DNA of 32,000 nucleotides from Vulcanisaeta distributa DSM 14429 (GCF_000148385.1 NC_014537.1:1080001-1112000), one strand, 5' to 3'; counted from the first letter of the stretch, positions 9,860-27,185 are shown. Notes: generated by a model not told the origin, from the letters alone. Program-made: numbers and translations.

Positions 9860-9903
9860 TGCTCTCTCGTTTTAAGTATTTGGGATGCCGAGCCTTGAGG
9901 AGG

Positions 9904-14044: not shown

Positions 14045-15074
14045 CCTGCCTCACCTCGATGCAAACCCACCCGATCGGTTCATTACCGGCCAGCCTAACC
14101 GTGGCGTCTCCCCATGGCCTATTGAGCCTGCTACTTACATAGTCCGTGATTCTGGAGACTAGGTCTGGGCTATACTTCTCAAGTAGGTTAATCACGGTCT
14201 TCCACCTCCTGCTCGCGCCAAACCCAACCCTCACTGGTACACCACCCCCACATTCAGGTACCTTAAGGCCCCTCCTCCCCTCGAAGGATGAGACCTCGCG
14301 GCTAAACTCCTTAATAGCATTGACTATATCGTCGTAGTTCAGTAACCTAGCCTTAACATCCTCGGTAACGGGGGGATGCCTTATAGCCACCTCGTACTCA
14401 AGCCTAACGCCGGGCCTTAGGCCAATCGCCATAACCCTATACTTATCCTCCCTATCATGGATGCAGTAGACTCCGTAGTCATCCGGCCTAGGTTTAGTTA
14501 ACTGCCTAACCGCCAGGTCCTTGAATAGGCGGTATGGCGCCTTGAGCCTCTCCTCACCGTGAATCCTCTCCATAACCACCGTCAATACGTCATCCTCAGC
14601 CTCAGGGGAGACCATGTTTAACCTAGGCCTCTCAGCCAGCTTCTCTGAAACGGCCCTGGTGAAGCTTTCCCTAAGCTGGGCATCTCTAGCCAATAGCCAA
14701 TACAGGTAGGCGGTCCTGATCAGGCCCTTAACCTCACTTGGCGGTATCCCCTCAGGGCTATGGTCAAGAACCTCAACACCCCCACAGTTGGTTACTATTG
14801 CGTAGCTCCTCACGGAGTACCTCTCAGGCGCCTTCGACATGGTGTTCATTAGGGCGTTTAACAACTGCCCATAGTCCATCGACTTAACGTTAACCAGCTG
14901 CTCGATGGGTAGTTTAGTTAAGTCAATTACGTAAAGCCTACCGCCGCTGGCCACGGCGTCTAAACCTATGCTTAACCTACCTCCACTCAGCACGAAGGTA
15001 GGCGTCTTAACATTGATAACGAGCCTCATACCACAACCACAGTGGGTCAAGCCTCTTAACGCAGTTGGGTCCAT
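14037..15074 (-). CDS. csm5: Csm5-like RAMP (Cas7-group)
   Basis: Motifs present are VKTPTFVLSGG, IPPSEVKGLIRTAYLYWLL (compare IPGSSIKGALRT) and VRVGFGASRRWKT. The probable start is ATG 15029 (MRLVINV). Confidence 0.65.
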   Translation of the reverse strand: MDPTALRGLTHCGCGMRLVINVKTPTFVLSGGRLSIGLDAVASGGRLYVIDLTKLPIEQLVNVKSMDYGQLLNALMNTMSKAPERYSVRSYAIVTNCGGVEVLDHSPEGIPPSEVKGLIRTAYLYWLLARDAQLRESFTRAVSEKLAERPRLNMVSPEAEDDVLTVVMERIHGEERLKAPYRLFKDLAVRQLTKPRPDDYGVYCIHDREDKYRVMAIGLRPGVRLEYEVAIRHPPVTEDVKARLLNYDDIVNAIKEFSREVSSFEGRRGLKVPECGGGVPVRVGFGASRRWKTVINLLEKYSPDLVSRITDYVSSRLNRPWGDATVRLAGNEPIGWVCIEVRQGE

Positions 15075-15930
15075 TCAACGTTTCAAAATCCAGATACTCG
15101 GCACCAACCACTGAACCGTCGGTGATTACGGAGACTGGGCCCATGACGTAGAATGGGCTGCTGCACACCCAACCCCTAACCATAGTGTTCACGCAGCCGT
15201 AAACCTCCCGGCTACGCGGTAGAGCAGTGCCGAGCAGCAGCGCGTGGCTGCCGGAGTCCCTTAGACTGTCGATAGCATCGACTTTAACCACGGTGAAGTG
15301 CCCAAGCCCAATACTCCTCTCCCCACCGACACCAACCTTACCCAGTAGCTCAAGGGCCCGCCTGGCCTCATCCAGGGATGCCCCATCCCTAGTCGTGAAG
15401 TAGAGTACGTAATTGACGTGGGGTTGGAAGGCGGCCACCCTGTAGGTATCGGCATTGCTCAACACTCTACCAACAACATTCCTCTGAATACTTACACTAC
15501 TCCCATAGCTGCTCCTGTACGTGAATTCACGCCCCCCGCACCTAACCTTAAGGTCGTCATCAAGGAGGGGCTCCACGCTGGGTGCATTTAGGCAATCGAG
15601 TGGTAGATACTTCAGCTTCTTAACCCGCTTCAGGACGGCGTGGGCCCTACCGGGGTCGTCCGCGTACTTACTGGCTATTGACGAGAGTAGCTGAATCTTC
15701 AAATCCATGGGCATGGGCACGGTTAACGCAGCCTCTCCATCCACTTCAAAGGCCATTGGGTACATTGACGATGCCCTATCGATGCCGTGGCTAATGCCTA
15801 GGTGTCTTAGATTCTCCAGGGCCGAGTATACGGTATCCGATGGGACGTAGTCGAGGGTGTCCATCAGGCCAGTCCTACCAACCCTGAACGGCTCCTCAAA
15901 CCTAACCACCGCATAGTTGATCCTCATCAC
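15007..15930 (-). CDS. csm4: Csm4-like RAMP (Cas5-group)
   Basis: It has FEEPFRVGRTG...YVPSDTVYSALENL (the SDTLFSAL-type motif) and the C-terminal G-rich loop VGVGGERSIGLGHF. Confidence 0.7.
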   Translation of the reverse strand: MMRINYAVVRFEEPFRVGRTGLMDTLDYVPSDTVYSALENLRHLGISHGIDRASSMYPMAFEVDGEAALTVPMPMDLKIQLLSSIASKYADDPGRAHAVLKRVKKLKYLPLDCLNAPSVEPLLDDDLKVRCGGREFTYRSSYGSSVSIQRNVVGRVLSNADTYRVAAFQPHVNYVLYFTTRDGASLDEARRALELLGKVGVGGERSIGLGHFTVVKVDAIDSLRDSGSHALLLGTALPRSREVYGCVNTMVRGWVCSSPFYVMGPVSVITDGSVVGAEYLDFETLNGPNCVKRLDPLWLWYEARYQC

Positions 15931-16931
15931 GTCGCACCGCAGATGCTCCTCTTAATGGCGTCAAACACCTCTATCCTACCTATGAAATCCCTGAGCTTAG
16001 TCAATTCATCAAACGTGTCTATTTTACTCGGTGCAGGCTCGTTCATTGCCAGGTTGTGGAAATATAGTTCAATATCCTTAAACTTGATGCTTCCATAACC
16101 CCTGCTGCCTGACCCACCTATGTAAGTCTCCTCAACCAGCATCAGGGCCTCGACCAGTGACTGTAGGTAGAAGCGGGCTGGGTAATCCTTGATAAGGTCT
16201 TTCAACTTACTATGCTCATCACACTCTCTACGCCTACACACGTCGAGGTCAAATACCAGGAATGATATAGACCCCTCAAACTCAACATCAGGCTTAACCC
16301 TAAGTATAGTCCTCGGGTCGGCGGCGCTGGTAACCCTATCGATCCTATTCTCGCTCTTCTCCTCGAGGAAGTCCTCGAAGGTTATATTCCCGCAGCCGCC
16401 CTTCTCCCTGCATAGGTCACTGATGTAATCCTCCGATGGGTACATGTCCCTGAATATAGCCCTGGTCGGTGCCCAGCACTTCTCAACAAGCCATGTGTAT
16501 GGATTCTCACCCTCCTCACTGGGCTGGTAATACATCGGTTGAACGGACATGCTACCGAACACGTTATCAACGGGGCAGTATGGGTCATCGTGAATTATCT
16601 TATTACCCTCACCAACCCTCATGTGGTAATATATCTTACCATCCGTGGTACTTAAGCTAAGGCCCAGGGCAAGCTCAAGCAGTGACCTCGCCCTACCCTT
16701 AAGGGAACTGCCCGGTATGTAGGGGACCTTGATCTGGCAATCTTTATAATTCTTGCAATCTTTATAATAATACTGTTTATATATTGACACTGGCTCAACA
16801 TCAGCCGCGCCCATCACCTCCCTAGCCTTAAGGCTCCTAATCAGGAAGCCTGTCTTGTTAATCAGTTTAAACTTTAACTCGAAGATGCCGACCAGCCTCA
16901 ACTGCGGTGAGAGGTACTGCCTCACAGCCAC
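15927..16931 (-). CDS. csm3: Csm3 (Cas7 backbone RAMP)
   Basis: Motifs present are AADVEPV, VPYIPGSSLKGRARSLLE, NRIDRVTSAADPRTILRV and IGGSGSRGYGSIKF. Confidence 0.85.
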   Translation of the reverse strand: MAVRQYLSPQLRLVGIFELKFKLINKTGFLIRSLKAREVMGAADVEPVSIYKQYYYKDCKNYKDCQIKVPYIPGSSLKGRARSLLELALGLSLSTTDGKIYYHMRVGEGNKIIHDDPYCPVDNVFGSMSVQPMYYQPSEEGENPYTWLVEKCWAPTRAIFRDMYPSEDYISDLCREKGGCGNITFEDFLEEKSENRIDRVTSAADPRTILRVKPDVEFEGSISFLVFDLDVCRRRECDEHSKLKDLIKDYPARFYLQSLVEALMLVEETYIGGSGSRGYGSIKFKDIELYFHNLAMNEPAPSKIDTFDELTKLRDFIGRIEVFDAIKRSICGAT

Positions 16932-17344
16932 TCCTCCTCACCCCTCTTGATACCGTAAATGACGTACGCTAGGAATGCGTCGAGCGAATCCCTGAGGGTT
17001 TCGGCAAGCTTCCTGGCCTGCTGCGGATCCTTAGCATTCCTTATATCGTCAAGCGCCTGCTTAATCCCATTAGCCAAGTCTTCATCAATGACGCTTCGGT
17101 TCTTCTGATACTCAATAACCACGTTCAGTCTAAATAAGGCCCTTGAGTAATTCCTCAAATCGGCATCACTTGAGGATATTATCTTATCCAGGACCGGTAT
17201 AATCATGTTGTAGATCTTCCTAAAGGAGGCTGACGTAGTCCTATAAACCCTATAGCCAGCCAAGGTCCTTAACCCTGCATCATAGTCACCGTTCCTAAAG
17301 CTCTGAACCACATTAGAGTAGAAGCGAGAAGACCCGTACGGCAT
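16922..17344 (-). CDS. csm2: Csm2-like small subunit (Cas11)
   Basis: It is a 140-aa helical protein. TTSASFRKIYNMI resembles the Csm2 TSQLRKFY motif. It is the first gene of the csm operon. Confidence 0.6.
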   Translation of the reverse strand: MPYGSSRFYSNVVQSFRNGDYDAGLRTLAGYRVYRTTSASFRKIYNMIIPVLDKIISSSDADLRNYSRALFRLNVVIEYQKNRSVIDEDLANGIKQALDDIRNAKDPQQARKLAETLRDSLDAFLAYVIYGIKRGEEEWL

Positions 17345-17395
17345 TACTAAAAACTAGTAGAGAGAGGTTTAAAAATATTGCTCAGATCTATGGCT
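17345..17395. promoter_or_regulatory. Compact divergent promoter region with a single A/T element between csm2 and the ATPase gene
   Basis: GGTTTAAAAATATTG has its core at 17367-17376. That core is about 27 nt from csm2 ATG (17344) and about 25 nt from ATG 17396 on the other strand. Confidence 0.45.
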
Positions 17396-18466
17396 ATGCC
17401 TAATTTAGCGATTAAGGGAAGTTTAACATATGGCGGAAGAGAGGTCAACGTTGATATAGGTATTGAGCTTAAACCATTAACCATATTAATTGGGCCAAAC
17501 CTAAGCGGTAAGTCTCTAACGCTCATGTGCTTAGCAAAGCTGGCAAGGACGATCATAGCGAGAGGTTACGTGCATGATCGTATTGAGGAGCTGCCGCAAT
17601 CGCTGGAGTGCGTGGGTGATAGTTTGAATTATGACTACGCAATATATGTCGATGCGTATAGAGTAATGCTGCAACCATTTATGAAAATAAGGCCTATGTT
17701 AGATAAAATAAGGAGGGTTACTGAGGGATTGGTCGATGAGAACTTACGTGGTATAAGAAGTTCCATATTACTTGACGTTGATACTCTTAATAAATCGCTC
17801 TCAGAGGATGAGGTGGCTAAGGATTTACGGATTAAAACAAGCATGATACTTCTAAACGACGCTATGAAGGTTTTTGAGAAGGCCCGTAATGGTTTTCAAT
17901 TAATGATTGAGGAAGCCTCAAAGACCTTCGGTGAGCGTGGTGAGGACTTCAGGAGGGCGCTCAGTCACTTCATGCCGTTGTTCATCGAGCATGTTAATCT
18001 CATGGGTAATAATAGTGCATGGCGTTGGTATGACTTCGAATTAGGTAACACTAGCTTTAATGTTGAGGAGCTTTCCAGTGTCTATGCGCCGTCCCTCGTG
18101 GTCTTCTACGCATTACATACTTATGCGCTACCACAAAACTCCGTGCTCCTCGTTGAGGAGCCTGAGGTGCATGCGCACCCAAGCCTCGCGTTATTCCTGG
18201 GCTACTTCCTAAATAGGCTTGTGCGAGATAGCGAGCAGAGGCTTAGGAGTGGTGAGAAGCCGTGGGTATTCCATGTAGTCGTGTCCACGCATAGCATGGA
18301 CTTCCTAAGGGGAGCGCTAATGGCTGGTGAGGATACGGTGGGGGTTTACGTATTCGATAGGGATGTTACCGAGGGCAAGATAACTGTGAAGCCCTGGTCA
18401 GGAGGCGCCGTTATACCTGGCTTTACCGAGTCAAGGTTATTAACTATGTTTGGTGGTAAAGGATGA
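17378..18466 (+). CDS. ABC-type (AAA_15/AAA_21-like) ATPase, no fused effector domain
   Basis: It has Walker A GPNLSGKS, Walker B/D-loop VLLVEEPEVHAHP and the H-loop VVVSTHSMDFL. The likely start is ATG 17390 or 17396. Confidence 0.8.
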   Translation: MLRSMAMPNLAIKGSLTYGGREVNVDIGIELKPLTILIGPNLSGKSLTLMCLAKLARTIIARGYVHDRIEELPQSLECVGDSLNYDYAIYVDAYRVMLQPFMKIRPMLDKIRRVTEGLVDENLRGIRSSILLDVDTLNKSLSEDEVAKDLRIKTSMILLNDAMKVFEKARNGFQLMIEEASKTFGERGEDFRRALSHFMPLFIEHVNLMGNNSAWRWYDFELGNTSFNVEELSSVYAPSLVVFYALHTYALPQNSVLLVEEPEVHAHPSLALFLGYFLNRLVRDSEQRLRSGEKPWVFHVVVSTHSMDFLRGALMAGEDTVGVYVFDRDVTEGKITVKPWSGGAVIPGFTESRLLTMFGGKG

Positions 18467-18924
18467 ATAAAGGATTAATAGGGATAAACATAGTTGACTT
18501 GTATTACTGCTTTGAACCTAAGTTGATGGATTACATATACTCATTGTATTATGATAATGAATACTGCGTCCTATGTGAAAAAGGATTGTGTAGGGATGGA
18601 AAAATAGTATATGGTAAGTATTTAATATCGGATAACGTTTTGTGGTTTGTGGAGGGCTTTTATGTTAAAATGGCGTGCCCTGAGTGTAATCCTGATGGTA
18701 ACTGCATCATGAATTGCATTGTTGTGAATGAACATGAGTCTCATCATCTTACGTGCTGTGTTGGGCATGGTATTGCTGGCGTGTTAACCGTTAGGGCTGG
18801 TTGCAGTAAGGGGTGTGGTGAGGGTGTTAGCGCTAAAGAGGTTGGTGGTGAGCTCGTGTGTGATGATTTCTTCAGGTGTAGGCCTATTGATGGTTTAGGG
18901 TGTTGGCTTTATTGCTATAGGTAA
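18463..18924 (+). CDS. Cys-rich small protein (16 Cys in 153 aa), unknown family
   Basis: Its start overlaps the ATPase stop in an ATGA junction (18463-18466). CxxC pairs CVLC...CPEC, plus CIMNC, TCC, CSKGC, CDDFFRC and CWLYC. I recognise no family. Confidence 0.5.
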   Translation: MNKGLIGINIVDLYYCFEPKLMDYIYSLYYDNEYCVLCEKGLCRDGKIVYGKYLISDNVLWFVEGFYVKMACPECNPDGNCIMNCIVVNEHESHHLTCCVGHGIAGVLTVRAGCSKGCGEGVSAKEVGGELVCDDFFRCRPIDGLGCWLYCYR

Positions 18925-18988
18925 TGGTGAGGTGTGGTTGGTCGAGGGCCTGCTTTGATTAGGTATAAATAATACCTGAGAAATTAGT

Positions 18989-20053
18989 TTGCTAATTGAG
19001 TTGATGAGGGAGGTCTTTGAGTTGGTAAGGCTTATGGAGGAGGTTGGTGGTAAGGTTGGTGATTACGTTAGTCCTGACGTTGTTGATCTTGGTGAGGGTT
19101 ATGACGTTGTTAGGGTTTCCTGCGATAATGTTGATTTTGTGGTCATTGATAAGGGCGGTGTTGAGCTTGGAGATAGGTTGATTGGTGTTGATTCCCACAC
19201 GTCCGTGCTTAGGTTCGCGGCATTTGACGTGCATGTAGTCACAGGCGCGCTTGTGGGTCGGGACGTCTACCTAGTGCCTGGGGTTCAGGGCGTTAGGTGG
19301 TTGGGGCTTAAGCTTAGGTTTAGGCTTGATAATGCGGATGCGCTGGATAGGTACTCTGGGATCATCTACGTTAAGTCCAGGTACCTGGGTAGGTACTTCG
19401 ACGGCTCCTACAACGATGAGGCAATTAGGGATGAGGTGAGACTCCACGTTGAGTTAAGACTCATCAACATTGCCAGGGAGTTGAGTGGCTTCATCCTGAT
19501 TGACGGGCCCGTATTCCCAACACCAAGGATACTGGGTATGGAGGGTAATGAGTACTCAAGCCTTTACTGGGGCTTGGTTAAGGATAGGGTTGAGGCCCTG
19601 AGGGGTTTGAGGGCCGTGGGTGTCGTTAAGAGGCTGGGCCAGAGTCACTACCTGGCCAGGTGCCTTGGGGAGGTCTATGCCGATGACTACACGCTGGCCG
19701 TTAACAAACTAACGCCATTGCTGGGCAATGGCGGAGTCGCGGCCATTGGGCCTGTGAGGATTGAGGCTGGTGATTACGGTAAGTACTGTTGGTACGTCGC
19801 CTCGAGGCTTGGTCGTAGGATTGACGTTGTTAGGGTTGAGGGGTTGAGTGAGGATGTTGTTGAGGTTGGTAGGGACTACGTTGCCCTAACAATGACCGTG
19901 GGTGGGACTGCAATGTCGATACACATAGCCGATAGGGTGGCTAGGAGGTTGAATGCCAGCGCGGTGAACCTAATATCATCCATATCCCCACTGGGCATAA
20001 CGTATGAGGGCCTTGAAACGATTAGGGAGGCACTGAGTGAGTTGGGTGGTTGA
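18989..20053 (+). CDS. nurA: NurA-domain nuclease
   Basis: Motifs present are IGVDSHTS, RDEVRLHVELRL, FILIDGPVFP, VGVVKRLGQSHYL and SIHIADRVARRL. The A/T box GGTATAAATAATACC lies at 18962-18976. The start is TTG 18989 or ATG 19004. Confidence 0.7.
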   Translation: MLIELMREVFELVRLMEEVGGKVGDYVSPDVVDLGEGYDVVRVSCDNVDFVVIDKGGVELGDRLIGVDSHTSVLRFAAFDVHVVTGALVGRDVYLVPGVQGVRWLGLKLRFRLDNADALDRYSGIIYVKSRYLGRYFDGSYNDEAIRDEVRLHVELRLINIARELSGFILIDGPVFPTPRILGMEGNEYSSLYWGLVKDRVEALRGLRAVGVVKRLGQSHYLARCLGEVYADDYTLAVNKLTPLLGNGGVAAIGPVRIEAGDYGKYCWYVASRLGRRIDVVRVEGLSEDVVEVGRDYVALTMTVGGTAMSIHIADRVARRLNASAVNLISSISPLGITYEGLETIREALSELGG

Positions 20054-21791
20054 TGTGGTGGGTGCCAAACCCATTGATTGTAGGAGTGTCCTGGGCTACA
20101 TAACGAGGCAGATGCCCAGCTCGGTAACGGCCGAGTCCGCCGTCACCTACATGATCAGTGAATGCCAGGTGGAGTTCCCCGTGGGTAAGTACCTGGTTAT
20201 TGAGGGTGATGGTGTTAATTACCTGGCTAGGATATCCGAGTCGAGGATTGAGGATATTTACTCCGTAGCCAAGACCCCCGTGCTCTCCCTGGAGCAGGAG
20301 TTGAGTATGGACATTAGGTACGTGCCCAGGCTAATAGCCCTCGAACTCGTGGCTGAGTGCAGGGGTGAAACCTGCGGCGCACCGGTGACGCCACCACCAA
20401 TACACGCAGTCGTCAGGGAGCCAAACCCCCAGGAGGTCTCGAAGATGTTGTCACTGCCGGTTGAGGGCATCGTGCTTGGGTCACTGGCACTACCATCCGG
20501 CGTTGTGATACCCGGTAATGAGGTCCTAATAACGAGGGATGCCCTCAAACACCACATGCTCGTTGTCGGGACCACGGGTAGCGGCAAGACGACACTACTG
20601 AAGAACCTGGCCCTCGAACTAATCACCAAGTACAAGGGCACCACGGTGATAGCCGTGGACGCGGTTGGGCATTACCACCACCTAGCCCTTAACAACGTGA
20701 GGACCAAGGTCCTAATACCCGTGACCCACGATTACGTGAGGAGGGCCATTAAGAGGGCTGGGAATGGGCGCGACGCAGTTAAGGGACTCGCTAAGGCCCT
20801 GGCGAGGGACTACATAAATGGGGTCTTCAGGTCAATGGGTATTAAGGTTGGGAGGGTTAGGGTTAAGGCGGTGATGGCTAGGTCGGGCAATAAGTATAGG
20901 CTTGTTAGTGTGGTGTTGGGCGTTGGCGGTGGTGTTGAGTTGATACCCTGGTCCCTAAGGACCAGGGACCTACTAATGAGTATTAATGAGTTGACGGGAT
21001 TACTCACGGAGCAGGCTAGGATGTTCTACGGTAAGGTGATTAGGGAGGTTAGAAAGAGGATTTCGGGGTCTGGGTTGACCTTCGAGAGGATTTACGAATA
21101 CCTAACAAGCCCCAGTGAGAATAGGCTGGGTGGCAGGCAGTTGCTTAATTATGAGGTGATTGCCGGTAACCTCGGGATTCACGAGAGCACTATGGAGAAT
21201 ATCGTCAGGGCATTACTGGCCATAATAGAGACTAGGCTCTTCGACATTGAGGTCCGCGCCGGCGTTGATTACGTGGTTAATGAAGAGCCGGATTATGGGA
21301 GCGCATTCAAGCCCGGCTACGTGGTCCTAGACCTAAGGACATCCTCAGCCCTCAGGCAGAGGATCATGGTTTATAGGGTCCTTGACAGGTTGTTTAGGTT
21401 CATGGGTGGGGAGCACCTACGTAATAGGGATAGGATGGCCGTGGTGCTTGTTGATGAGGCTCACCTGTTCTTCCCGCAGACTAGGGCTGATGAGGAGAGG
21501 AGGCTCCTGGAGAGGCACATAACGAGGATAACGAGGCTGGGTAGGAGTAGGGGGATTGCCGTTGTCTTCGCAACCCACATGCCCGACGACCTAAACGACG
21601 CAATAATACAGTTAACGAACACGAAGGTTATCCTCAGGAGTGATGAGAAAGTACTGGAGAGGCTTGGCGTACCAACCAGGGAGAGGAGGTTCCTATCCAT
21701 AGCGCCAACGGGGCTTGCGTACGTCAAGGGCTTTGCCTATAGGTACCCAATATACATAGCCTTCAAGCCCCAGGCGTACCACGTCGGGTAA
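20037..21791 (+). CDS. herA: HerA-type (FtsK/HerA superfamily) hexameric ATPase
   Basis: It has a barrel-like N-terminal domain, Walker A MLVVGTTGSGKTTLLKN, Walker B AVVLVDEAHLFFP, and RLGRSRGIAVVFATHMP. GTG start candidates are at 20037, 20055 and 20058, around the nurA stop (20051-20053). Confidence 0.85.
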   Translation: MSWVVDVVGAKPIDCRSVLGYITRQMPSSVTAESAVTYMISECQVEFPVGKYLVIEGDGVNYLARISESRIEDIYSVAKTPVLSLEQELSMDIRYVPRLIALELVAECRGETCGAPVTPPPIHAVVREPNPQEVSKMLSLPVEGIVLGSLALPSGVVIPGNEVLITRDALKHHMLVVGTTGSGKTTLLKNLALELITKYKGTTVIAVDAVGHYHHLALNNVRTKVLIPVTHDYVRRAIKRAGNGRDAVKGLAKALARDYINGVFRSMGIKVGRVRVKAVMARSGNKYRLVSVVLGVGGGVELIPWSLRTRDLLMSINELTGLLTEQARMFYGKVIREVRKRISGSGLTFERIYEYLTSPSENRLGGRQLLNYEVIAGNLGIHESTMENIVRALLAIIETRLFDIEVRAGVDYVVNEEPDYGSAFKPGYVVLDLRTSSALRQRIMVYRVLDRLFRFMGGEHLRNRDRMAVVLVDEAHLFFPQTRADEERRLLERHITRITRLGRSRGIAVVFATHMPDDLNDAIIQLTNTKVILRSDEKVLERLGVPTRERRFLSIAPTGLAYVKGFAYRYPIYIAFKPQAYHVG

Positions 21792-22551
21792 GGTTTAGGA
21801 ACTCCCTAAACCAGGGCGCCAACTCCACGGAGTCGCCCCTCCTAACCAGGAAGCCCGACCTAACGAGGTCACTCAGTAGGTCCCTCGGCAACCCACCCAG
21901 GGCCCCACTCAACACCTTACTCACCAACTCATCATCAACCCTGAGGGGCATCCTAGGCAGCACTATTAGCCTCCCATCCACGGTTACGTATATGGGCTTT
22001 GCACCCAGGAGCCAGGCAACCATGGAAGCCATGACACTCTCCAACTTAGTACCGCCGGCAATACTCACATAGGCGTCGAAGCCCCTGGAGATGTAGTCAA
22101 TGAGGTCCGAGCCAAGTGCCCTAACAAGGTTCCCCAAACCATCACTGAAATTCTCAGTCCCGAAAAACTGAACCCTCGTGTAACCATCAACCTCCACGCC
22201 TAACTCACGGGACTTAGACGTGAGGCACCTAACGAGGGCTACAGTACAGAGTTGCGAGCTCGCCGTATCCGTGGCGTAGAACTTAACCCTAATAACATCA
22301 CCACCAAGCAACCTCCTAAGCAGGACAACCGAGGAACCCTCGGCACAGCACCTAACCAAGTCACCACACGCGAAGTCCCTCAACCTATTGATAAAGCCCT
22401 CATTATAGAGGTACCTAGAGAGCCTCGAGTCAGCCTCACGATCACCACCCAACACCCTCCTAACCAACTCATCACCAACAACGCTGGACACCAACGCATT
22501 CTCAAGCAAGGACAAACCAACAATAACACCAAGGAAAGCAGGCACAACCAA
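21763..22551 (-). CDS. CARF-domain protein, APE2256/SSO1393-like, paralogue of 8978-9859
   Basis: GVIVGLSLLEN, CAEGSSVVLL, FYATDTASS and VSIAGGTKLES align motif-for-motif with the other copy. The C-terminal tail SGFLVRRGDSVELAPWFREFL matches SGVIDIRNGEVEVREWFRRL. The 3' end overlaps herA by 29 nt (convergent). Confidence 0.6.
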   Translation of the reverse strand: MVVPAFLGVIVGLSLLENALVSSVVGDELVRRVLGGDREADSRLSRYLYNEGFINRLRDFACGDLVRCCAEGSSVVLLRRLLGGDVIRVKFYATDTASSQLCTVALVRCLTSKSRELGVEVDGYTRVQFFGTENFSDGLGNLVRALGSDLIDYISRGFDAYVSIAGGTKLESVMASMVAWLLGAKPIYVTVDGRLIVLPRMPLRVDDELVSKVLSGALGGLPRDLLSDLVRSGFLVRRGDSVELAPWFREFLNLTRRGTPGA

Positions 22552-22759: not shown

Positions 22760-23430
22760 GAAGATTTCAATAGAATATTGAAAGGAAAGGATCATGTGGG
22801 TTTTCCCTGTCAATCCCGTGATGTCGGAAGATTTCAATAGAATATTGAAAGTCATTGTGAATTCCCATACCTGTGTAGCTGATGGTAATTCATATGCCGA
22901 AGATTTCAATAGAATATTGAAAGTAGATTTCTACACGGATAAGGGCGTGTTCGACACCACGAGTGAGGAAGATTTCAATAGAATATTGAAAGTAGCCTGC
23001 CAGCCATTTACACCCTCTGCCTCTATTTTCATTTTTACCTGAAGATTTCAATAGAATATTGAAAGAATAATAGCGCGGAAATTGTGGCTGTCCATGCCTT
23101 GCTGGTAAGAAGATTTCAATAGAATATTGAAAGGAATTTCATCTAAGAACAGTGGGGCCTGCATCTGATAAGTAGTAGCTAGGAAGATTTCAATAGAATA
23201 TTGAAAGACGATGCCTCTCGAGGGGGCTCAGGAGAGAATGGGGAGTTGAATGAGGGAAGATTTCAATAGAATATTGAAAGCACGTATGTCGCAACGTCAC
23301 CATCCCTGAAGCCACCCATAGCAGGAAGATTTCAATAGAATATTGAAAGGAGCGATAATGTTCATCTAAATCATCGGTGCGAGTCATCACATAAATTAGT
23401 TGGGGTTTCAATAGAATAAAGTATTGAAGG
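22760..23430 (+). CRISPR. CRISPR array 3: 10 repeats, 9 spacers (42-52 nt), same repeat
   Basis: Perfect repeats start at 22760, 22827, 22899, 22968, 23041, 23109, 23183, 23256 and 23325. The terminal repeat at 23402-23430 is degenerate (GGGGTTTCAATAGAATAAAGTATTGAAGG). Confidence 0.97.
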
Positions 23431-23511: not shown

Positions 23512-24399
23512 TTATGGTTTTTGTCGTATCATTCTTCCGTAGCCCAATGCTGTCTTAGCGCCCAACCCATTATTTAGTGCCTTCATGACTATGTCGCTGA
23601 TCTCCTTCACCATGCATGCCCCCTGACACTTGCTGTCCATGTACACGTACTCACCCACATCCCTCCCACCGCACTTATACCTTAGCCTGGACCTATTTAT
23701 CATTACAACGACCCTAAACCCAACGCCCTTGGATATTGCTAGGAATGGTATTGGTGTTGGGTTGACCTGGGGCTCGCTTATGGCTCCCTCGCCCTCCCTG
23801 TAGTGTGGGTTTATTATGTCGAGGGTTAGTAGCCCGCCGTTAGCTGGGCAGTAGACTGGGTATGAGTCCAGAACCACTATTGGCGAAACCTCCGCTGGAT
23901 TTCCCTCCTCATCTGTTGGGCTTAGGGCCCTTGAGCATGGTGTTCCCTGGGCCGCGGAGTTTATTGCGCCTTTAAGTGAAGATGATGGTATGTAGGGTAG
24001 GTTCCAGTACGGGTCCCAGGCGATCCCAGTCTCAAGGACCTCCATGTACGGGTTCCTAAGGCCTACCACGAGCCTACTAATCGTGATGTATGTCGAGTCT
24101 ATCAATTCCTCATAACCCAAGGACTTAAGGGACTCCTTAACCTCGGTAATATTATCATTAACGCGCCTCAGTAACTCGCCCAGGTTATTGCATGAGTAAG
24201 CCTTGACCAAGTCCTCCATTAACCCCCTAGCCCTTTCATTGATGTATTCCCTAACATTAGTGGTTGAACTCGAGCCACCGCGACCCCGTCCCGTACCAAC
24301 CCTCGTCTGAGCACCGCCGGCGCCAATCGTCTGAATCCATTTAATGAATTCACGCCTAATGTGGCTGATGACGTTAGTCTCACTGGGTCTCACGGCCAT
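23512..24399 (-). CDS. cmr6: Cmr6 (type III-B RAMP)
   Basis: Motifs present are LPYIPSSSLKGAINSAA and the C-terminal GLGAKTALGYGRM. Confidence 0.8.
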   Translation of the reverse strand: MAVRPSETNVISHIRREFIKWIQTIGAGGAQTRVGTGRGRGGSSSTTNVREYINERARGLMEDLVKAYSCNNLGELLRRVNDNITEVKESLKSLGYEELIDSTYITISRLVVGLRNPYMEVLETGIAWDPYWNLPYIPSSSLKGAINSAAQGTPCSRALSPTDEEGNPAEVSPIVVLDSYPVYCPANGGLLTLDIINPHYREGEGAISEPQVNPTPIPFLAISKGVGFRVVVMINRSRLRYKCGGRDVGEYVYMDSKCQGACMVKEISDIVMKALNNGLGAKTALGYGRMIRQKP

Positions 24400-25625
24400 G
24401 CAGGTTTCACCCTGATTCCCTGTTTGCCCGCGTAGTCGAGGAACTCATTCAAGGCAATACATATTGCATCGACTACCAGGGACTCACTGATCGTTATTCT
24501 CTGACTACCCGCGTCCCTCCACGTAAGCTCTCTAGGCCAGTCAGCGGATAGGAAGACCGATAGGTAACTCTGATTACTATGCACGGCGAGGATCATTGGC
24601 GATGCCCTCCTACTCACGTCACTGGTTATTTCATAGCCGGTACCTCTCTGCTCCCTCGGTAAGCCGAGTATCCACGCAGCCAGCCTATTCCTTAATTTAT
24701 CATTAACGGTCGGGTTGCCCATCAAGACCCTAGCCCTCTCGGGCCTAAGGAAGAAGTTATGGAGTGCCCCCAAAACCCTACTACCACCGCTCAACTCCAG
24801 AACCTGGAATGCATATAACTTACCCAACTTACACCCAATATCTCTATTCACGCATTTCGTGTACTCGGCCTTGGAAATAACGGGCATTGGTGGTAACCCG
24901 CAGTCCCTACCCCCCATAGCCTGCGCACGCCTCGGTAAATACTCACTTTTGCTGATCGTATTCTTAACGTACTTAACCACCTCATTAATCAACTCATTAA
25001 TTGACCTCCTCGAATCGAACAATGAGGAGTACCTACCGTTGACTGACCTTACGTCCAAGCAACCGAGGCCCCTTCTACCGCCCTTACCGAGGCACGACAG
25101 CCTTAAGGCAAGGCTTAACGAGCCCAGGGCAGCCTTAACAGCATTATCGTCTAAGTTGCATGGGATATGCTCATTAATTGTTATGTGTGCCCTGAGCCTA
25201 TCAACATACTCAACCTGCCTCCTACCAAGTGTCAGTAACCTAACCCTCTGTAGGTTAATACCACCGATTAAGCCCCCACTGGCTACTCGGGGCTGCGCCG
25301 CCTCGGTAATATCGACGCTGACTCGGAAGCATGACGCCCTAGAGCCCTCCTCACCCGCATAACCAAGCCCCAGGTCAAGCCCCACTATTTTCGAAATAAG
25401 CTCAGCCTCACGATCACTTGGCCTCCTTAAAATATCCCTATCCGGGACGCCGTGAAGTAGTCCCTGTTCGAATAAGGCACCAGCCACCAGGGCCCTCGCC
25501 CACCAGCGCCAGAGACCCTTAACCTCACTGGGCCTTATTGGGTAATCCCTATCGACCTCATTGGGGTTGGCAGACCCTGCCAGTAATGGTGTGGCTAATT
25601 CCACGTCTAACTCGACATAGGCCAT
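24390..25625 (-). CDS. cmr1: Cmr1 (type III-B RAMP)
   Basis: ELATPLLAGSAN...IRPSEVKGLWRWWARAL is the Cmr1 signature (compare lrG.lRfWwRa). Confidence 0.75.
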   Translation of the reverse strand: MAYVELDVELATPLLAGSANPNEVDRDYPIRPSEVKGLWRWWARALVAGALFEQGLLHGVPDRDILRRPSDREAELISKIVGLDLGLGYAGEEGSRASCFRVSVDITEAAQPRVASGGLIGGINLQRVRLLTLGRRQVEYVDRLRAHITINEHIPCNLDDNAVKAALGSLSLALRLSCLGKGGRRGLGCLDVRSVNGRYSSLFDSRRSINELINEVVKYVKNTISKSEYLPRRAQAMGGRDCGLPPMPVISKAEYTKCVNRDIGCKLGKLYAFQVLELSGGSRVLGALHNFFLRPERARVLMGNPTVNDKLRNRLAAWILGLPREQRGTGYEITSDVSRRASPMILAVHSNQSYLSVFLSADWPRELTWRDAGSQRITISESLVVDAICIALNEFLDYAGKQGIRVKPAWP

Positions 25626-25634
25626 TCAATCACC

Positions 25635-26126
25635 TCAAGGCTTCTTAATAGATGCCTCCGCAAGTCTCTTCAGCCATTCAGCAAATATTAGTAATTTATT
25701 ACCTGCAAGTATCTCTGTGTTCATATCATTTAGCTGCTTTAGAATATCAGGCATGGAGTCCGCCTTAGTAATTACACCAAGCCTTACCAAGGCCTTAATG
25801 AGACAAATACCATACAACTCATACGCCTCATCACTTATACCAGCGCTCTGAACCTCCTTAAACGCATCACTTACAGCCTCTTTACTCAACGCAAAGCTTA
25901 ACTTATCAAAGCCCGTCATCTTCTTATCACTTGACTTGGAAAGTATGAAGCTTAACGTGTAGTTGATACCATTATAATATAGGTAAGTGAGTCCATCATT
26001 ACACCTAGACCTAAATCCTTGCCTAATCCTATCATTGTTACCAAACACGGCATTTAATGCCTCTACGCACTCAATCGCCAAATCCAACGCCTCATCTTTA
26101 GCGCGCTCCGTGTTCATGGGTACCAC
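25635..26126 (-). CDS. cmr5: Cmr5 small subunit (Cas11)
   Basis: It is a 163-aa all-helical protein located between cmr4 and cmr1. The C-terminal FAEWLKRLAEA is typical of Cmr5. Confidence 0.6.
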   Translation of the reverse strand: MVPMNTERAKDEALDLAIECVEALNAVFGNNDRIRQGFRSRCNDGLTYLYYNGINYTLSFILSKSSDKKMTGFDKLSFALSKEAVSDAFKEVQSAGISDEAYELYGICLIKALVRLGVITKADSMPDILKQLNDMNTEILAGNKLLIFAEWLKRLAEASIKKP

Positions 26127-27085
26127 CAGAGCTTGACCAAGCCCTTACCTATCGTCTCCTTACCACCAAGCATTAACGCTTTAACTTTACTGCGTAATTC
26201 ATTACACACGTTTTTCGGATCCTTAAACACCTTTAGTTCATCGTTAAGCTTATTATCCGGTATCCTGGTACCGCCACATATTAACCCCGATACCATGACC
26301 GTGAACTGGGGCAGGTACTCCTCCTCCCACAATGCACCACTCACGACGGTCTTTGTACCGTAATTAACCCTGATCCTCGTCTGGACTATTAGGCTTCTCC
26401 TAATGACCTCCCTAATAACATCATCACTAATGAATGCAAGCCCTGCCTGGGAAACCCTCCTCCTTAAGTCATCACTCGGTATTGCATCTAGGAAGAGCTT
26501 CATGGCCTCAGGATCAACCTTAGCCCTAAACTCCAGTTCATTAAGTACGACTTTGTCACCCATTAATACATGGCCATCACCAACAATGGCCGTGTTACCC
26601 ACAGCACTCGGCCTCACTCTATCGATGAGTTTCATTAATGAATCCCTCAGTTGGTTAAGGTTGCCGTTATATTCGGCCAGGACCTCGAGGTATGTTAGGT
26701 AGTAATTGAGTAGGTGTGGTGATGTTACGTAGGTCCAAACACCCCTCAACGACCTAGCCGGTATTAGGAGGAGCCTGGCGTCTAGGAAGACCACCGAGGA
26801 TGCATAGTCCGAGACCTCCTGTGACCCCGCCTCAGGGCCAAAAATAGCCTTAGCCCTCTCCTTACACGTTGTATCACCGCATCCTAACGTATAATTACTC
26901 CTAATGACTCCCTTCAACCCACTGGCCCATATGACTGGTATGTCGAATTCATCACGCTGAACTTGCAGATCAATTATCTCACCACCCCTACCCGTCCCTG
27001 GGTGCGTCGGCGTTAATGAGTAAATGAATAATAACTCTGCAACCCTCTTATTGGTTGATTGCTGCGTGGGCTGGGTCGCGCTCAT
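26114..27085 (-). CDS. cmr4: Cmr4 (Cas7 backbone RAMP)
   Basis: SLTPTHPGTGRGGEIIDLQVQRDEFDIPVIWASGLKGVIRS matches the Cmr4 N-terminal signature. Confidence 0.85.
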   Translation of the reverse strand: MSATQPTQQSTNKRVAELLFIYSLTPTHPGTGRGGEIIDLQVQRDEFDIPVIWASGLKGVIRSNYTLGCGDTTCKERAKAIFGPEAGSQEVSDYASSVVFLDARLLLIPARSLRGVWTYVTSPHLLNYYLTYLEVLAEYNGNLNQLRDSLMKLIDRVRPSAVGNTAIVGDGHVLMGDKVVLNELEFRAKVDPEAMKLFLDAIPSDDLRRRVSQAGLAFISDDVIREVIRRSLIVQTRIRVNYGTKTVVSGALWEEEYLPQFTVMVSGLICGGTRIPDNKLNDELKVFKDPKNVCNELRSKVKALMLGGKETIGKGLVKLWWYP

Positions 27086-27185
27086 TAGTTATTCCTCGAT
27101 AATCACCTTTAAAGCTTTACCTGACTCCGGTAATACTTAATAATTCACCCCTCGGTAATACGGGTTAGCTAGGTGATTATTAGGG
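27086..27185. promoter_or_regulatory. Divergent cmr4 / cmr2 control region with inverted and direct repeats
   Basis: A perfect 10-bp inverted repeat, ATAATCACCT (27099-27108) / AGGTGATTAT (27171-27180). A direct repeat CGGTAATAC at 27128-27136 and 27153-27161. A/T boxes TTTAAAG (27108-27114) and CTTAATAATT (from 27136). Confidence 0.5.

What the first reader, a model, noticed from the sequence alone, without database searches (positions are those of the whole stretch)
18989..21791. Stand-alone NurA-HerA pair embedded between two type III CRISPR modules
Seen: a 354-aa ORF with NurA-type motifs (IGVDSHTS, FILIDGPVFP, VGVVKRLGQS, SIHIADRVARRL). It is followed directly by a 584-aa HerA-type ATPase (Walker A VVGTTGSGKTT, Walker B VVLVDEAHLF). 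The nurA stop at 20051-20053 abuts or overlaps the candidate herA GTG starts, and the pair has its own A/T box at 18962-18976. No mre11 or rad50 flanks the pair. It sits between the csm operon and a CARF gene plus array 3. Established: the canonical archaeal repair operon is herA-mre11-rad50-nurA. HerA-family ATPases paired with Sir2 or DUF4297 effectors act as bacterial anti-phage systems. Inference: this is a defence-dedicated translocase-nuclease paralogue. It could act as a type III accessory effector or as an independent HerA-effector immune module. I know of no experimental description of such a CRISPR-linked function.
Basis: partly seen in the sequence, partly recalled or inferred. Interest (0 to 1): 0.75.

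Follow-up and report, generated by a model that had tools for sequence, protein, structure and literature searches.

The report
Known CRISPR-linked NurA–HerA nuclease–motor pair
This is the CRISPR-dedicated copy of the NurA nuclease and HerA DNA-motor gene pair of the archaeon Vulcanisaeta distributa; its tie to CRISPR loci was published in 2012 for this very gene pair, but what it does in immunity has still not been tested.

Summary
Window 18989-20053 encodes a NurA-family nuclease and 20037-21791 a HerA-family ATPase. Their catalytic residues are intact and the genes overlap, between a III-A (csm) and a III-B (cmr) module. The window is Vulcanisaeta distributa DSM 14429, and the pair is Vdis_1157/Vdis_1158.

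The CRISPR link is already published. Bernick et al. 2012 name these two genes and list further nurA/herA paralogues in the genome. Vestergaard 2014 calls the family 'Cas NurA/Cas HerA'. Shah 2019 calls it 'Type III coevolved', and those models match here at E 4e-129 and 1e-250.

My neighbourhood survey agrees and adds one correction: the pair is not stand-alone. In 10 of 10 loci of this clade a CARF gene lies beside or between nurA and herA. The CARF belongs to the Crn1/CARF7 family (here 21763-22551, minus strand). Only 1 of 18 loci of more distant NurA-HerA clades has one.

Best reading: an ATP-driven machine that degrades DNA from its ends, serving CRISPR immunity and coupled to cyclic tetra-adenylate signalling. 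Whether it boosts interference, feeds spacer acquisition, or both is unresolved. I found no experimental study. Novelty: already known. Interest: low to moderate.

The parts
18989..20053 (+). nurA (Vdis_1157). The maximal ORF is 354 aa. The likely true start is ATG 19004, giving 349 aa.
   Evidence: Pfam NurA matches at 1.8e-13. PADLOC 'NurA, Type III coevolved' matches at 3.8e-129 over its full length. The AF2 model has pLDDT 92.6 and its top 11 PDB fold hits are all NurA. D68, E155, D172, K214 and D315 are invariant in 21 homologues. P0055 is 100% identical and labelled V. distributa.
20037..21791 (+). herA (Vdis_1158). The maximal ORF is 584 aa. NCBI's 581-aa product corresponds to a start at GTG 20046.
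   Evidence: Pfam DUF87 and HerA_C match. PADLOC 'HerA, Type III coevolved' matches at 9.6e-251 over its full length. The AF2 model has pLDDT 90.6, and its top fold hits are D. radiodurans, S. solfataricus and T. kodakarensis HerA at E 1e-22. Walker A K184 and Walker B D473/E474 are invariant.
20037..20053 (+). nurA/herA junction. The nurA stop TGA (20051-20053) overlaps or abuts the GTG start candidates 20037, 20046, 20055 and 20058.
   Evidence: The sequence was read directly. The same overlap is seen in Caldivirga (17 nt) and Thermocladium (4 nt). It implies translational coupling; this is an inference.
18962..18976 (+). TATA-like A/T box GGTATAAATAATACC upstream of nurA, a putative own promoter.
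   Evidence: The sequence is shown. Its position relative to ATG 19004 fits a short-leader or leaderless crenarchaeal transcript; this is an inference. It is not statistically distinctive.
21763..22551 (-). CARF7 (APE2256/Crn1-type) protein of 262 aa, convergent with herA and overlapping its 3' end by 29 nt. This is the conserved third partner of the pair.
   Evidence: Pfam Cas_APE2256 matches at 4e-20 and PADLOC CARF7 at 2e-60. PDB sequence hits are Sso1393 (3qyf, 1.6e-5) and the Sis0811 family (7pq2). The Crn1 key residues S14 and K169 are present. A CARF gene is adjacent in 10 of 10 loci of this clade.
17378..18924 (+). Cas_RecF ABC ATPase (17378-18466) and the Cys-rich RFas (18463-18924). 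These are known type III-A accessory genes lying directly upstream on the same strand. They are context, not a conserved partner of nurA-herA.
   Evidence: Pfam AAA_15 and AAA_21 match the ATPase. PADLOC cas_RFas matches at 1e-42. Shah 2019 describes them as clusters 17 and 83. They are absent next to nurA-herA in the other loci; T. tenax has an AAA_15-type ATPase gene, split between two ORF calls, about 6 kb away.
11774..17344 (-). Type III-A module cas10(csm1)-csm5-csm4-csm3-csm2.
   Evidence: PADLOC and Pfam assignments support each gene. Cas10 carries a GGDD cyclase motif at residue 524.
22760..23349 (+). CRISPR array 3, with 9 repeats of GAAGATTTCAATAGAATATTGAAAG. The leader lies on the CARF side.
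   Evidence: The repeats were found.
23512..31378 (.). Type III-B module: cmr6-cmr1-cmr5-cmr4 on the minus strand, cmr2-cmr3 on the plus strand.
   Evidence: PADLOC and Pfam assignments support each gene. Cmr2 carries GGDD at residue 859 and an HD dipeptide at residue 18.

Best explanation
**What it is.** This is the CRISPR-associated NurA-HerA paralogue ('Cas NurA/Cas HerA') of Vulcanisaeta distributa.

**What the sequence shows.**
- NurA is an RNase-H-fold nuclease with the catalytic Asp-Glu-Asp set intact.
- The two genes are translationally coupled.
- Their clade is always accompanied by a CARF7 (Crn1-type) cyclic-tetra-adenylate-binding protein.
- Both Cas10 proteins in the locus keep the GGDD cyclase motif.

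**What I infer.**
1. As in the canonical complex, a HerA hexamer translocates on double-stranded DNA from a free end or break and feeds the strands to a NurA dimer. The DNA is resected or destroyed wholesale.
2. In this paralogue the activity is recruited to CRISPR immunity. When Csm or Cmr detects invader RNA and Cas10 makes cA4, the neighbouring CARF7 protein couples that signal to the machine. It could do so by controlling nurA-herA expression, by acting on the complex, or by setting the duration of the signal as a ring nuclease.
3. NurA-HerA then degrades invader DNA from its ends.
4. The fragments may also supply prespacers to Cas4/Cas1-Cas2.

I favour invader-DNA degradation as the primary role, with adaptation as a by-product.
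For: **Identity**
- HerA and NurA are 100% identical to V. distributa proteins from a 2,374,137-bp contig.
- Bernick 2012 names Vdis_1157-1158 as the CRISPR-associated, collocated pair and lists other paralogues in the genome.
- Vestergaard 2014 and Shah 2019 list the families as accessory cas genes.
- The PADLOC 'Type III coevolved' models match over their full length at 3.8e-129 and 9.6e-251.

**Enzymology**
- The Pfam matches are above their cut-offs.
- The predicted folds are high-confidence and match solved NurA and HerA structures, including the T. kodakarensis HerA-NurA-DNA complex.
- NurA D68, E155 and D172 have the same E-to-D spacing (17 residues) as S. solfataricus E116 and D133. 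K214 corresponds to K202.
- HerA K184, D473 and E474 are invariant.
- The genes overlap.

**CRISPR and cA4 link**
- A CARF gene is adjacent in 10 of 10 loci of the clade, against 1 of 18 in other clades. Fisher p = 8e-7, or 9e-5 under a conservative count.
- In Thermoproteus the CARF gene lies between nurA and herA and ends on the herA start codon.
- In a Thermocladium MAG the trio stands alone with no cas gene or array within 10 kb. The three genes therefore travel as a unit.
- A more distant clade has a different CARF type (Csx1-type) in the same position, bracketed by two arrays.
- Both Cas10 proteins carry GGDD.
- The CARF keeps the Crn1 residues S14 and K169.
Against: - There are no functional data for this paralogue anywhere in the searched literature.
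- The CARF partners belong to at least two CARF7 subfamilies plus a Csx1-type CARF. This argues against one fixed protein-protein interface. It fits equally well with a ring nuclease or regulator that is simply a common resident of crenarchaeal type III loci.
- In two MAG loci the pair sits inside the adaptation operon, csa1-cas4-cas1-CARF7-cas2-cas6-nurA-herA. In T. tenax the nearest cas genes are type I-A. Vestergaard classed the pair as 'Types I + III-specific'. Linkage to type III interference specifically is therefore not exclusive.
- The Tyr that is conserved in canonical NurA (Y298) is not evident here. An invariant Asp (D315) occupies that region.
- A complex between these particular proteins is inferred, not shown.
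Confidence: 0.55

Rival explanations
1. **Adaptation helper.** The pair mainly serves spacer acquisition. Like RecBCD or AddAB in bacteria, it resects invader DNA or processes the array during integration, giving substrates to Cas4/Cas1-Cas2. The CARF-HTH neighbour acts as a cA4-responsive transcription factor, as Csa3a does in Sulfolobus.
For: - Bernick 2012 proposed exactly this for the nurA-csm6-herA cluster.
- In S. islandicus the CARF-HTH regulator Csa3a binds nurA-herA promoters and activates them together with the adaptation genes. A RecBCD-like role in prespacer production was proposed.
- In loci L006 and L012 the pair is co-directional with, and contiguous to, csa1-cas4-cas1-CARF7-cas2-cas6.
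- L007 has cas4-csa1-cas1 within 7 kb.
Against: - In the window, Caldivirga and L015 the pair adjoins cmr or csm interference genes, and no cas1, cas2 or cas4 is in view.
- The Thermocladium trio has no adaptation genes within 10 kb.
- No spacer-acquisition data exist for any organism carrying this paralogue.
- This rival is not mutually exclusive with the best explanation.
Confidence: 0.27
2. **Independent defence module.** The pair is a self-contained HerA-plus-effector anti-virus system, like bacterial SIR2-HerA or DUF4297-HerA. It merely co-localises with CRISPR in a defence island and does not depend on crRNA or cA4.
For: - HerA-effector defence complexes exist and are structural neighbours of this HerA (8xav, 8zir, 8sub, 8j4u, 8wld; PMC11291478).
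- The Thermocladium locus lacks cas genes nearby.
- A more distant clade (L013) sits among toxin-antitoxin genes and a Fic gene.
Against: - PADLOC's defence-type HerA models match only partially and weakly (E 1e-15 to 1e-5), against 1e-250 for the CRISPR-coevolved model.
- The constant partner is a CARF protein, i.e. a sensor of a type III-made signal.
- Published analyses found co-evolution with cas cassettes.
- In L008 the module is bracketed by two CRISPR arrays.
Confidence: 0.1
3. **Housekeeping repair copy.** This is the cell's ordinary double-strand-break resection pair and lies next to CRISPR genes by chance.
For: NCBI names the NurA 'DNA double-strand break repair nuclease NurA'. Catalytic residues are intact.
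Against: - No mre11 or rad50 lies in the window.
- The proteins are very divergent from canonical ones. NurA has no PDB sequence hit at E<=1, and HerA matches only around Walker B.
- Bernick 2012 lists other V. distributa paralogues, including the recombination-type orthologues Vdis_0977 and Vdis_0630.
- The CARF and cas context is clade-specific.
- The pair is absent from P. islandicum, which also lacks csm6.
Confidence: 0.03

Closest known systems
CRISPR-associated NurA/HerA: 'nurA-csm6-herA cluster' (Bernick et al. 2012), 'Cas NurA/Cas HerA' (Vestergaard et al. 2014), clusters 57/58 'Type III coevolved' (Shah et al. 2019), PADLOC PDLC01056/PDLC01055
   Same: This is the same family, and for Bernick 2012 the same two genes (Vdis_1157/1158). 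The PADLOC models match over their full length. The constant pairing of NurA with HerA, the Thermoproteales distribution and the CARF (csm6/APE2256) neighbour all agree.
   Different: Nothing essential differs. In Vulcanisaeta, Caldivirga and Thermocladium the two genes are fused into an overlapping pair with the CARF gene convergent downstream. In Pyrobaculum and Thermoproteus the CARF gene lies between them.
Canonical archaeal HerA-NurA end-resection complex of the herA-mre11-rad50-nurA operon (S. solfataricus 4d2i/2ygk, P. furiosus 3tal, T. kodakarensis 9x1l-9x1p)
   Same: The folds are the same. The NurA catalytic D-E-D set and the Lys are conserved. So are the Walker motifs and the N-terminal barrel domain that binds NurA in the canonical complex. 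The same mechanism is expected: a hexameric motor feeding a dimeric nuclease.
   Different: No mre11 or rad50 partner is present. Sequence identity in structural alignments is only 11-16%, and NurA is undetectable by sequence against the PDB. The spacing between Walker A and Walker B is about 290 residues, against about 200 positions in the Pfam model. The Tyr298 equivalent is not evident. The genomic context is CRISPR, not repair.
Bacterial HerA-effector anti-phage systems: SIR2-HerA (Nezha) and DUF4297-HerA
   Same: A HerA-family hexameric ATPase is paired with an effector enzyme in a defence context. They are structural neighbours of this HerA (PMC11291478).
   Different: The effector here is NurA, not SIR2 or DUF4297. 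The defence-type HerA models match only weakly. Those systems have no CARF or cA4 component. This family is archaeal.
Crn1 large stand-alone ring nucleases, CARF7 + HTH (Sso1393, Sis0811); this comparison concerns the third gene
   Same: The PADLOC CARF7 model matches at 2e-60. There are sequence hits to 3qyf and 7pq2. Ser14 and Lys169 are conserved. The size (262 aa) fits CARF plus a small C-terminal domain.
   Different: Ring-nuclease activity and the HTH fold were not tested here. The tight, clade-wide linkage to nurA-herA is not a described property of Crn1.
Csa3a (CARF-HTH) control of nurA-herA and adaptation genes in Sulfolobus islandicus
   Same: This is an experimentally shown regulatory link between a CARF-HTH protein, nurA-herA promoters and spacer acquisition.
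   Different: There the targets are the housekeeping nurA-herA operons and the regulator belongs to a different CARF family. Here a dedicated paralogue is physically linked to the CARF gene.

Membership tests
NurA nuclease family (PF09376) | Profile match above the curated threshold | tested here: met
   Pfam NurA matches at E 1.8e-13, 51 bits against a cut-off of 21, covering residues 63-295.
NurA nuclease family (PF09376) | RNase-H-like NurA fold | tested here: met
   The AF2 model has pLDDT 92.6. The top 11 Foldseek PDB hits are all NurA (9x1l_G, 2ygk, 3tal, 1zup), with E from 1e-7 to 3e-4 and TM 0.37-0.49.
NurA nuclease family (PF09376) | Catalytic Asp-Glu-Asp (S. solfataricus D58, E116, D133) plus the conserved Lys (K202) | tested here: met
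   D68, E155, D172 and K214 are invariant in 21 homologues. The E-to-D spacing of 17 residues is the same as in S. solfataricus.
NurA nuclease family (PF09376) | Conserved Tyr (Y298) before the last helix of the RNase-H fold | tested here: inconclusive
   No invariant Tyr is found in the corresponding 'P-I-x-I-A-D-R' segment; D315 is invariant instead. No residue-level structural superposition was available.
HerA ATPase family (PF01935 / PF05872) | Profile matches above threshold; Walker A and Walker B | tested here: met
   DUF87 scores 46.3 bits (cut-off 23.2) and HerA_C 39.4 bits (cut-off 22). G178-T185 (with K184) and D473-E474-A475-H476 are invariant in 30 sequences.
HerA ATPase family (PF01935 / PF05872) | HerA architecture: N-terminal beta-barrel (HAS) domain plus a RecA-like core | tested here: met
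   The AF2 model has pLDDT 90.6. Residues 20-165 are all-beta. Full-length fold matches to HerA 7wrw, 4d2i and 9x1m have E 1e-22 and TM 0.53-0.66.
HerA ATPase family (PF01935 / PF05872) | Hexameric ring that binds a NurA dimer through the HAS domain | not testable with these tools
   No multimer prediction was available. The complex is inferred from gene overlap and constant co-occurrence.
CRISPR-associated NurA/HerA (Shah 2019 clusters 57/58; Vestergaard 'Cas NurA/Cas HerA') | Match to the family-specific models | tested here: met
   PDLC01056 matches at 3.8e-129 (positions 1-310 of 310) and PDLC01055 at 9.6e-251 (positions 3-532 of 532).
CRISPR-associated NurA/HerA (Shah 2019 clusters 57/58; Vestergaard 'Cas NurA/Cas HerA') | nurA and herA always together and next to cas genes or CRISPR arrays | tested here: met
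   In the window the pair lies between csm and cmr, with an array 200 bp beyond the CARF gene. In the clade, 9 of 10 loci have cas genes or an array within 10 kb and 10 of 10 have an adjacent CARF gene.
CRISPR-associated NurA/HerA (Shah 2019 clusters 57/58; Vestergaard 'Cas NurA/Cas HerA') | A separate paralogue: the genome has other nurA/herA copies | not tested
   This rests on the literature only. Bernick 2012 Table A2 lists Vdis_1272/1306, Vdis_0977/0630 and Vdis_0944. My searches did not retrieve V. distributa paralogues, and the single genome scan returned one MAG.
Canonical herA-mre11-rad50-nurA repair operon | mre11 and rad50 adjacent to herA/nurA | tested here: not met
   No Mre11 (metallophosphatase) or Rad50 match was found among all ORFs of at least 100 aa in the 32-kb window. 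The upstream ABC ATPase is Cas_RecF (AAA_15/AAA_21), not Rad50.
Bacterial HerA-effector defence systems (SIR2-HerA, DUF4297-HerA) | A SIR2 or DUF4297 effector partner, and a match to the defence-type HerA models | tested here: not met
   The partner is NurA. The defence-type PADLOC HerA models match only about 70-residue stretches at E 9e-15 to 9e-5.
Crn1 / CARF7 ring nucleases (for the neighbouring gene 21763-22551) | CARF7 profile match and conserved Ser/Lys of the cA4 site | tested here: met
   PADLOC CARF7 matches at 2e-60 and Pfam Cas_APE2256 at 4e-20. The alignment to Sso1393 shows G-x-S (S14) and G-G-x-K (K169).
Crn1 / CARF7 ring nucleases (for the neighbouring gene 21763-22551) | C-terminal HTH domain; cA4 cleavage activity | not testable with these tools
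Enzymatic activity needs biochemistry.

The most novel reading that the evidence does not exclude
CARF7-NurA-HerA is a three-component, cA4-gated DNA-shredding effector. It would be the first ATP-driven translocase-nuclease placed under cyclic-oligoadenylate control. It would physically couple type III (RNA-sensing) interference to clearance of invader DNA and to the supply of prespacers, giving type III systems a priming-like route to new spacers.
Probability: 0.25. Interest if true: 0.7.

Novelty: already known. Interest (0 to 1): 0.3.

Why it matters
Type III CRISPR systems sense RNA and signal with cyclic oligoadenylates. The known downstream effectors are mostly single-protein RNases, DNases, proteases or membrane proteins.

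A dedicated motor-nuclease pair consistently tied to a CARF sensor would be a different kind of effector. It could explain two things:
- how invader DNA is actually cleared in Thermoproteales
- how type III and adaptation modules get their DNA substrates

The genomic association has been known for over a decade. It has been catalogued repeatedly but never tested. The value of this locus is therefore as a clean, compact candidate for experiment, with overlapping nurA-herA plus a convergent CARF7 gene. It is not a discovery.

Tried and rejected
1. **Operator hypothesis.** The A/T box GGTATAAATAATACC is a perfect 5-N5-5 palindrome, so I asked whether it could be an operator for the CARF-HTH protein. 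It occurs once in the window, against 1.5 matches expected by chance when one mismatch is allowed. It is not repeated upstream of the CARF gene. There is no support, so I treat it only as a TATA-like box.

2. **Direct proof of other herA/nurA copies in V. distributa.**
 - The single genome-contig scan returned only one Thermoproteus MAG.
 - A profile search with a 30-sequence HerA alignment returned no V. distributa paralogue.
 - An exhaustive NurA profile search followed by a cluster look-up gave Sulfolobales and Thermoprotei names only.
 - A look-up of the NCBI-length HerA found no record.
 - The claim therefore rests on Bernick 2012 Table A2.

3. **Recovering a canonical HerA sequence from PDB alignments to use as a query.** The alignments covered only the Walker regions.

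4. **Sequence-level PDB search for NurA.** It gave no hit at E<=1. The family assignment needed profiles and fold comparison.

5. **Cas_RecF-RFas-NurA-HerA as a defence analogue of Rad50-Mre11-NurA-HerA.** Rejected as a conserved unit, because the Cas_RecF/RFas pair is not next to nurA-herA in the other loci.

6. **One fixed CARF orthologue as partner.** Rejected. The partners fall into at least two CARF7 subfamilies plus a Csx1-type CARF.

Full report
**1. Observation**

ORF listing confirms a 354-aa ORF at 18989-20053 (+) and a 584-aa ORF at 20037-21791 (+).

- Pfam assigns the first ORF to NurA: E 1.8e-13, 51 bits against a cut-off of 21.
- Pfam assigns the second to the HerA central domain DUF87 (7e-12) and to HerA_C (4e-10).
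- The nurA stop TGA is at 20051-20053. GTG codons at 20037, 20046, 20055 and 20058 are candidate herA starts, so the genes overlap or abut.
- NCBI's products are 349 aa for NurA and 581 aa for HerA, which correspond to starts at ATG 19004 and GTG 20046. The homologue alignments support the shorter N-termini.
- The A/T box GGTATAAATAATACC (18962-18976) is there. It is a plausible TATA element but not statistically distinctive.

**2. Map of the window**

- A truncated csa1 (3961-4632).
- Array 1 (4987-5502), cas6 (5601-6473), array 2 (6729-7450).
- Csx1 CARF-HEPN (7672-8994), a 293-aa CARF7 (8978-9859), CARF-PIN (9904-11214).
- III-A module cas10-csm5-csm4-csm3-csm2 (11774-17344, minus strand).
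- Cas_RecF ATPase (17378-18466) and Cys-rich RFas (18463-18924).
- nurA and herA.
- A 262-aa CARF7 (21763-22551, minus strand, overlapping the herA 3' end).
- Array 3 (22760-23349).
- III-B module cmr6-cmr1-cmr5-cmr4 and cmr2-cmr3 (23512-31378).

No mre11 or rad50 is present. Both Cas10 proteins carry a GGDD cyclase motif, so cyclic-oligoadenylate signalling is expected in this locus.

**3. Identity of the locus and prior knowledge**

HerA and NurA are 100% identical to Vulcanisaeta distributa proteins encoded on a 2,374,137-bp contig. The published record is as follows.

- Bernick et al. [quoted passage not shown] They name Vdis_1157-Vdis_1158 as the CRISPR-associated pair and the only collocated nurA-herA pair in V. 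distributa.
- Their Table A2 lists further V. distributa paralogues: Vdis_1272/1306, Vdis_0977/0630 (the recombination-type orthologue group) and Vdis_0944.
- Vestergaard et al. 2014 (PMC3973734) list 'Cas HerA helicase' and 'Cas NurA nuclease'. They count 14 examples each, always together, 'Types I + III-specific'.
- Shah et al. 2019 (PMC6546367) list clusters 57 (HerA) and 58 (NurA) as 'Type III coevolved'. The PADLOC models built from these match the window proteins end to end at 9.6e-251 and 3.8e-129.
- Altae-Tran et al. 2023 list NurA and HerA among putative CRISPR auxiliary genes.

Four literature searches found no experimental study of this dedicated paralogue. The finding is therefore a correct rediscovery of a catalogued but functionally untested accessory module.

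**4. The proteins**

*Sequence divergence.* These are very divergent from solved relatives. NurA has no PDB hit at E<=1. HerA matches only around Walker B.

*Fold.* With family alignments, AlphaFold2 gives confident models.
- NurA: pLDDT 92.6, and the 11 best PDB fold matches are all NurA.
- HerA: pLDDT 90.6, and the best matches are D. radiodurans, S. solfataricus and T. kodakarensis HerA, including the 2026 HerA-NurA-dsDNA complex. The bacterial SIR2-HerA and DUF4297-HerA defence complexes follow.

*Active sites.*
- In 21 NurA homologues D68, E149, E155, D172-G-P, K214-R215 and D315 are invariant.
- D68, E155 and D172 correspond to the S. solfataricus catalytic D58, E116 and D133, with the same 17-residue E-to-D spacing. 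K214 corresponds to K202.
- The conserved Tyr298 has no obvious equivalent.
- In 30 HerA homologues the Walker A motif (K184) and Walker B motif (D473-E474) are invariant. Residues 20-165 form an all-beta N-terminal domain, as in the HAS barrel that binds NurA in the canonical complex.

Both enzymes therefore look active, and the canonical mechanism is the natural expectation: a hexameric motor feeding a dimeric nuclease from a DNA end.

**5. Family size and boundaries**

An exhaustive profile search of 1.84 billion representative proteins with the NurA alignment found only 189 clusters at E<=1e-3 and 31 at E<=1e-30. The word-indexed searches found 54 HerA and 25 NurA clusters. Apart from unnamed metagenomic and MAG sequences, these come from Vulcanisaeta, Caldivirga, Thermocladium, Thermoproteus, Pyrobaculum and 'Crenarchaeota' MAGs. 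Named members of the next NurA clade out are from Sulfolobales and a Thermoprotei MAG.

**6.

For HerA at least 38% identical to the window protein:

| Locus | Organism | Arrangement |
|---|---|---|
| L011 | Caldivirga maquilingensis | CARF7, csx1, nurA-herA, convergent CARF7, cmr module; the same layout as the window |
| L005 | Thermocladium MAG | nurA-herA, convergent CARF7; no cas gene or array within 10 kb |
| L003 | Thermoproteus MAG | nurA-CARF7-herA; the CARF stop overlaps the herA start |
| L004 | T. tenax | nurA, frameshifted CARF remnants, convergent herA; type I-A genes 8 kb away |
| L006, L012 | two MAGs | csa1-cas4-cas1-CARF7-cas2-cas6-nurA-herA-CARF7 |
| L007 | MAG | nurA-herA, CARF7 1.1 kb downstream, then cas4-csa1-cas1, csx1, cas2 |
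| L014, L015 | two metagenome contigs | nurA-herA, convergent CARF7; L015 also has cmr genes and a 35-repeat array |

In total 10 of 10 loci have an adjacent CARF gene.

For HerA at most 35% identical:
- L008 has [array]-Csx1-type CARF-nurA-herA-[array].
- The other 17 loci show nurA-herA without an adjacent CARF gene or identifiable cas genes. One of them, L016, has CARF genes about 6 kb away.

Fisher's exact test gives p = 8e-7. Counting the T. tenax remnant as absent, dropping the window and merging L006 with L012 gives p = 9e-5. One caveat: several of the distant-clade contigs are short.

**7. The third partner**

The CARF protein next to herA matches PADLOC CARF7 at 2e-60 and Pfam Cas_APE2256 at 4e-20. 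It also matches the solved Crn1-type proteins Sso1393 (3qyf) and the Sis0811 family (7pq2).

CARF7 contains the 'large stand-alone ring nucleases', built as CARF plus HTH, whose key residues are S12 and K169 in Sis0811 (PMC9638899; PMC12409355). The window protein has S14 and K169 in the aligned motifs.

The partners in different lineages fall into at least two CARF7 subfamilies, plus one Csx1-type CARF. What is conserved is 'a cA4-binding CARF protein', not one orthologue.

**8. Mechanism**

*Shown:*
- two intact enzymes of the NurA and HerA folds
- overlapping genes
- clade-specific linkage to a CARF gene and to CRISPR loci
- cyclase-competent Cas10 proteins in the same locus

*Inferred:*
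- HerA6-NurA2 processes DNA from ends or breaks.
- The machine serves CRISPR immunity and is coupled to cA4 through the CARF7 protein.

I favour degradation of invader DNA as the primary role, with fragments also available to Cas4/Cas1-Cas2 (confidence about 0.55 for this composite).

The main rival is a dedicated adaptation role (about 0.27). Bernick 2012 proposed it. It is made plausible by the experimentally shown activation of nurA-herA promoters by the CARF-HTH regulator Csa3a in S. islandicus (PMC5587795). The two MAG loci where the pair is embedded in the adaptation operon also fit it.

An independent HerA-effector defence system is less likely (about 0.1). The constant partner is a sensor of a type III product, and the defence-type HerA models match poorly.

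A housekeeping role is essentially excluded (about 0.03).

**9. Verdict**

- Novelty: already known.
- Interest is low to moderate. A specialist would recognise it at once, but the function remains an open and testable question, and this compact three-gene arrangement is a good experimental entry point.

Noticed in passing
window 17378-18924 (+): A Cas_RecF ABC ATPase (362 aa; AAA_15/AAA_21) and an overlapping Cys-rich 153-aa protein (PADLOC cas_RFas, 1e-42) lie directly upstream of nurA on the same strand. They are only about 33-50 bp from the divergent csm2 start. This is a known type III-A accessory pair of unknown function (Shah 2019 clusters 17/83). It is not conserved next to nurA-herA in other genomes.
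   Followed up: partly
window 7672-11214 (-) and 21763-22551 (-): The 32-kb window holds four CARF proteins: Csx1 CARF-HEPN (440 aa), a 293-aa CARF7, a CARF-PIN (436 aa; PADLOC 3e-154) and the 262-aa CARF7 next to herA. This is an unusually rich cOA-sensing repertoire. The two CARF7 paralogues are only about 30% identical and have different closest relatives in other loci.
   Followed up: partly
window 3432-4632: csa1 looks truncated. It is 223 aa and matches Pfam Csa1 positions 9-211 of 292. It overlaps a 205-aa HTH gene on the other strand by about 90 bp. No cas1, cas2 or cas4 lies in the window, so the adaptation module is elsewhere or decayed.
   Followed up: no
window 11774-14044 (-) vs 27186-30395 (+): The III-A Cas10 (756 aa) shows no HD dipeptide in its first 120 residues. 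Cmr2 (1069 aa) has one at residue 18. Both keep GGDD. The Csm complex may therefore lack the HD DNase, which would make an external DNA nuclease such as NurA-HerA more relevant.
   Followed up: no
L004 11568-12135 (-), Thermoproteus tenax: The CARF (csm6) gene between nurA and herA appears split by a frameshift into 150-aa and 89-aa overlapping ORFs. This could be a pseudogene or a sequencing error. An AAA_15-type ATPase gene about 6 kb away (17639-18644) is likewise split between two overlapping ORF calls.
   Followed up: partly
L008 191-5749: In a MAG contig with a HerA only 32% identical, a Csx1-type CARF (311 aa, no HEPN hit), nurA and herA are bracketed by two CRISPR arrays. The arrays carry the same repeat in opposite orientation (14 and 7 repeats). 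A second CARF type has thus been recruited to the same position.
   Followed up: partly
L005 5182-6822 (+), Thermocladium MAG: A second DUF87/HerA-like ATPase gene (546 aa) lies 2 kb upstream of the cas-less nurA-herA-CARF7 trio.
   Followed up: no
L013 5186-7072: In a more distant nurA-herA clade, herA is followed by an overlapping small Fic-domain gene and by PIN/RHH and HEPN toxin-antitoxin genes. This is a defence-island-like context without CARF or cas genes.
   Followed up: no
window 1887-1995 (within ORF 1810-2214, +): A 33-nt tandem repeat (3.3 copies, 69% matches) lies inside a 134-aa ORF. That ORF has only weak coiled-coil-type Pfam hits.
   Followed up: no
window 22794-23042 (+), 23190-23411 (-), 5070-5420 (-): The mechanical ORFs listed here run through CRISPR arrays. 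Their translations repeat 'EDFNRILKV'. They are artefacts, not genes.
   Followed up: yes
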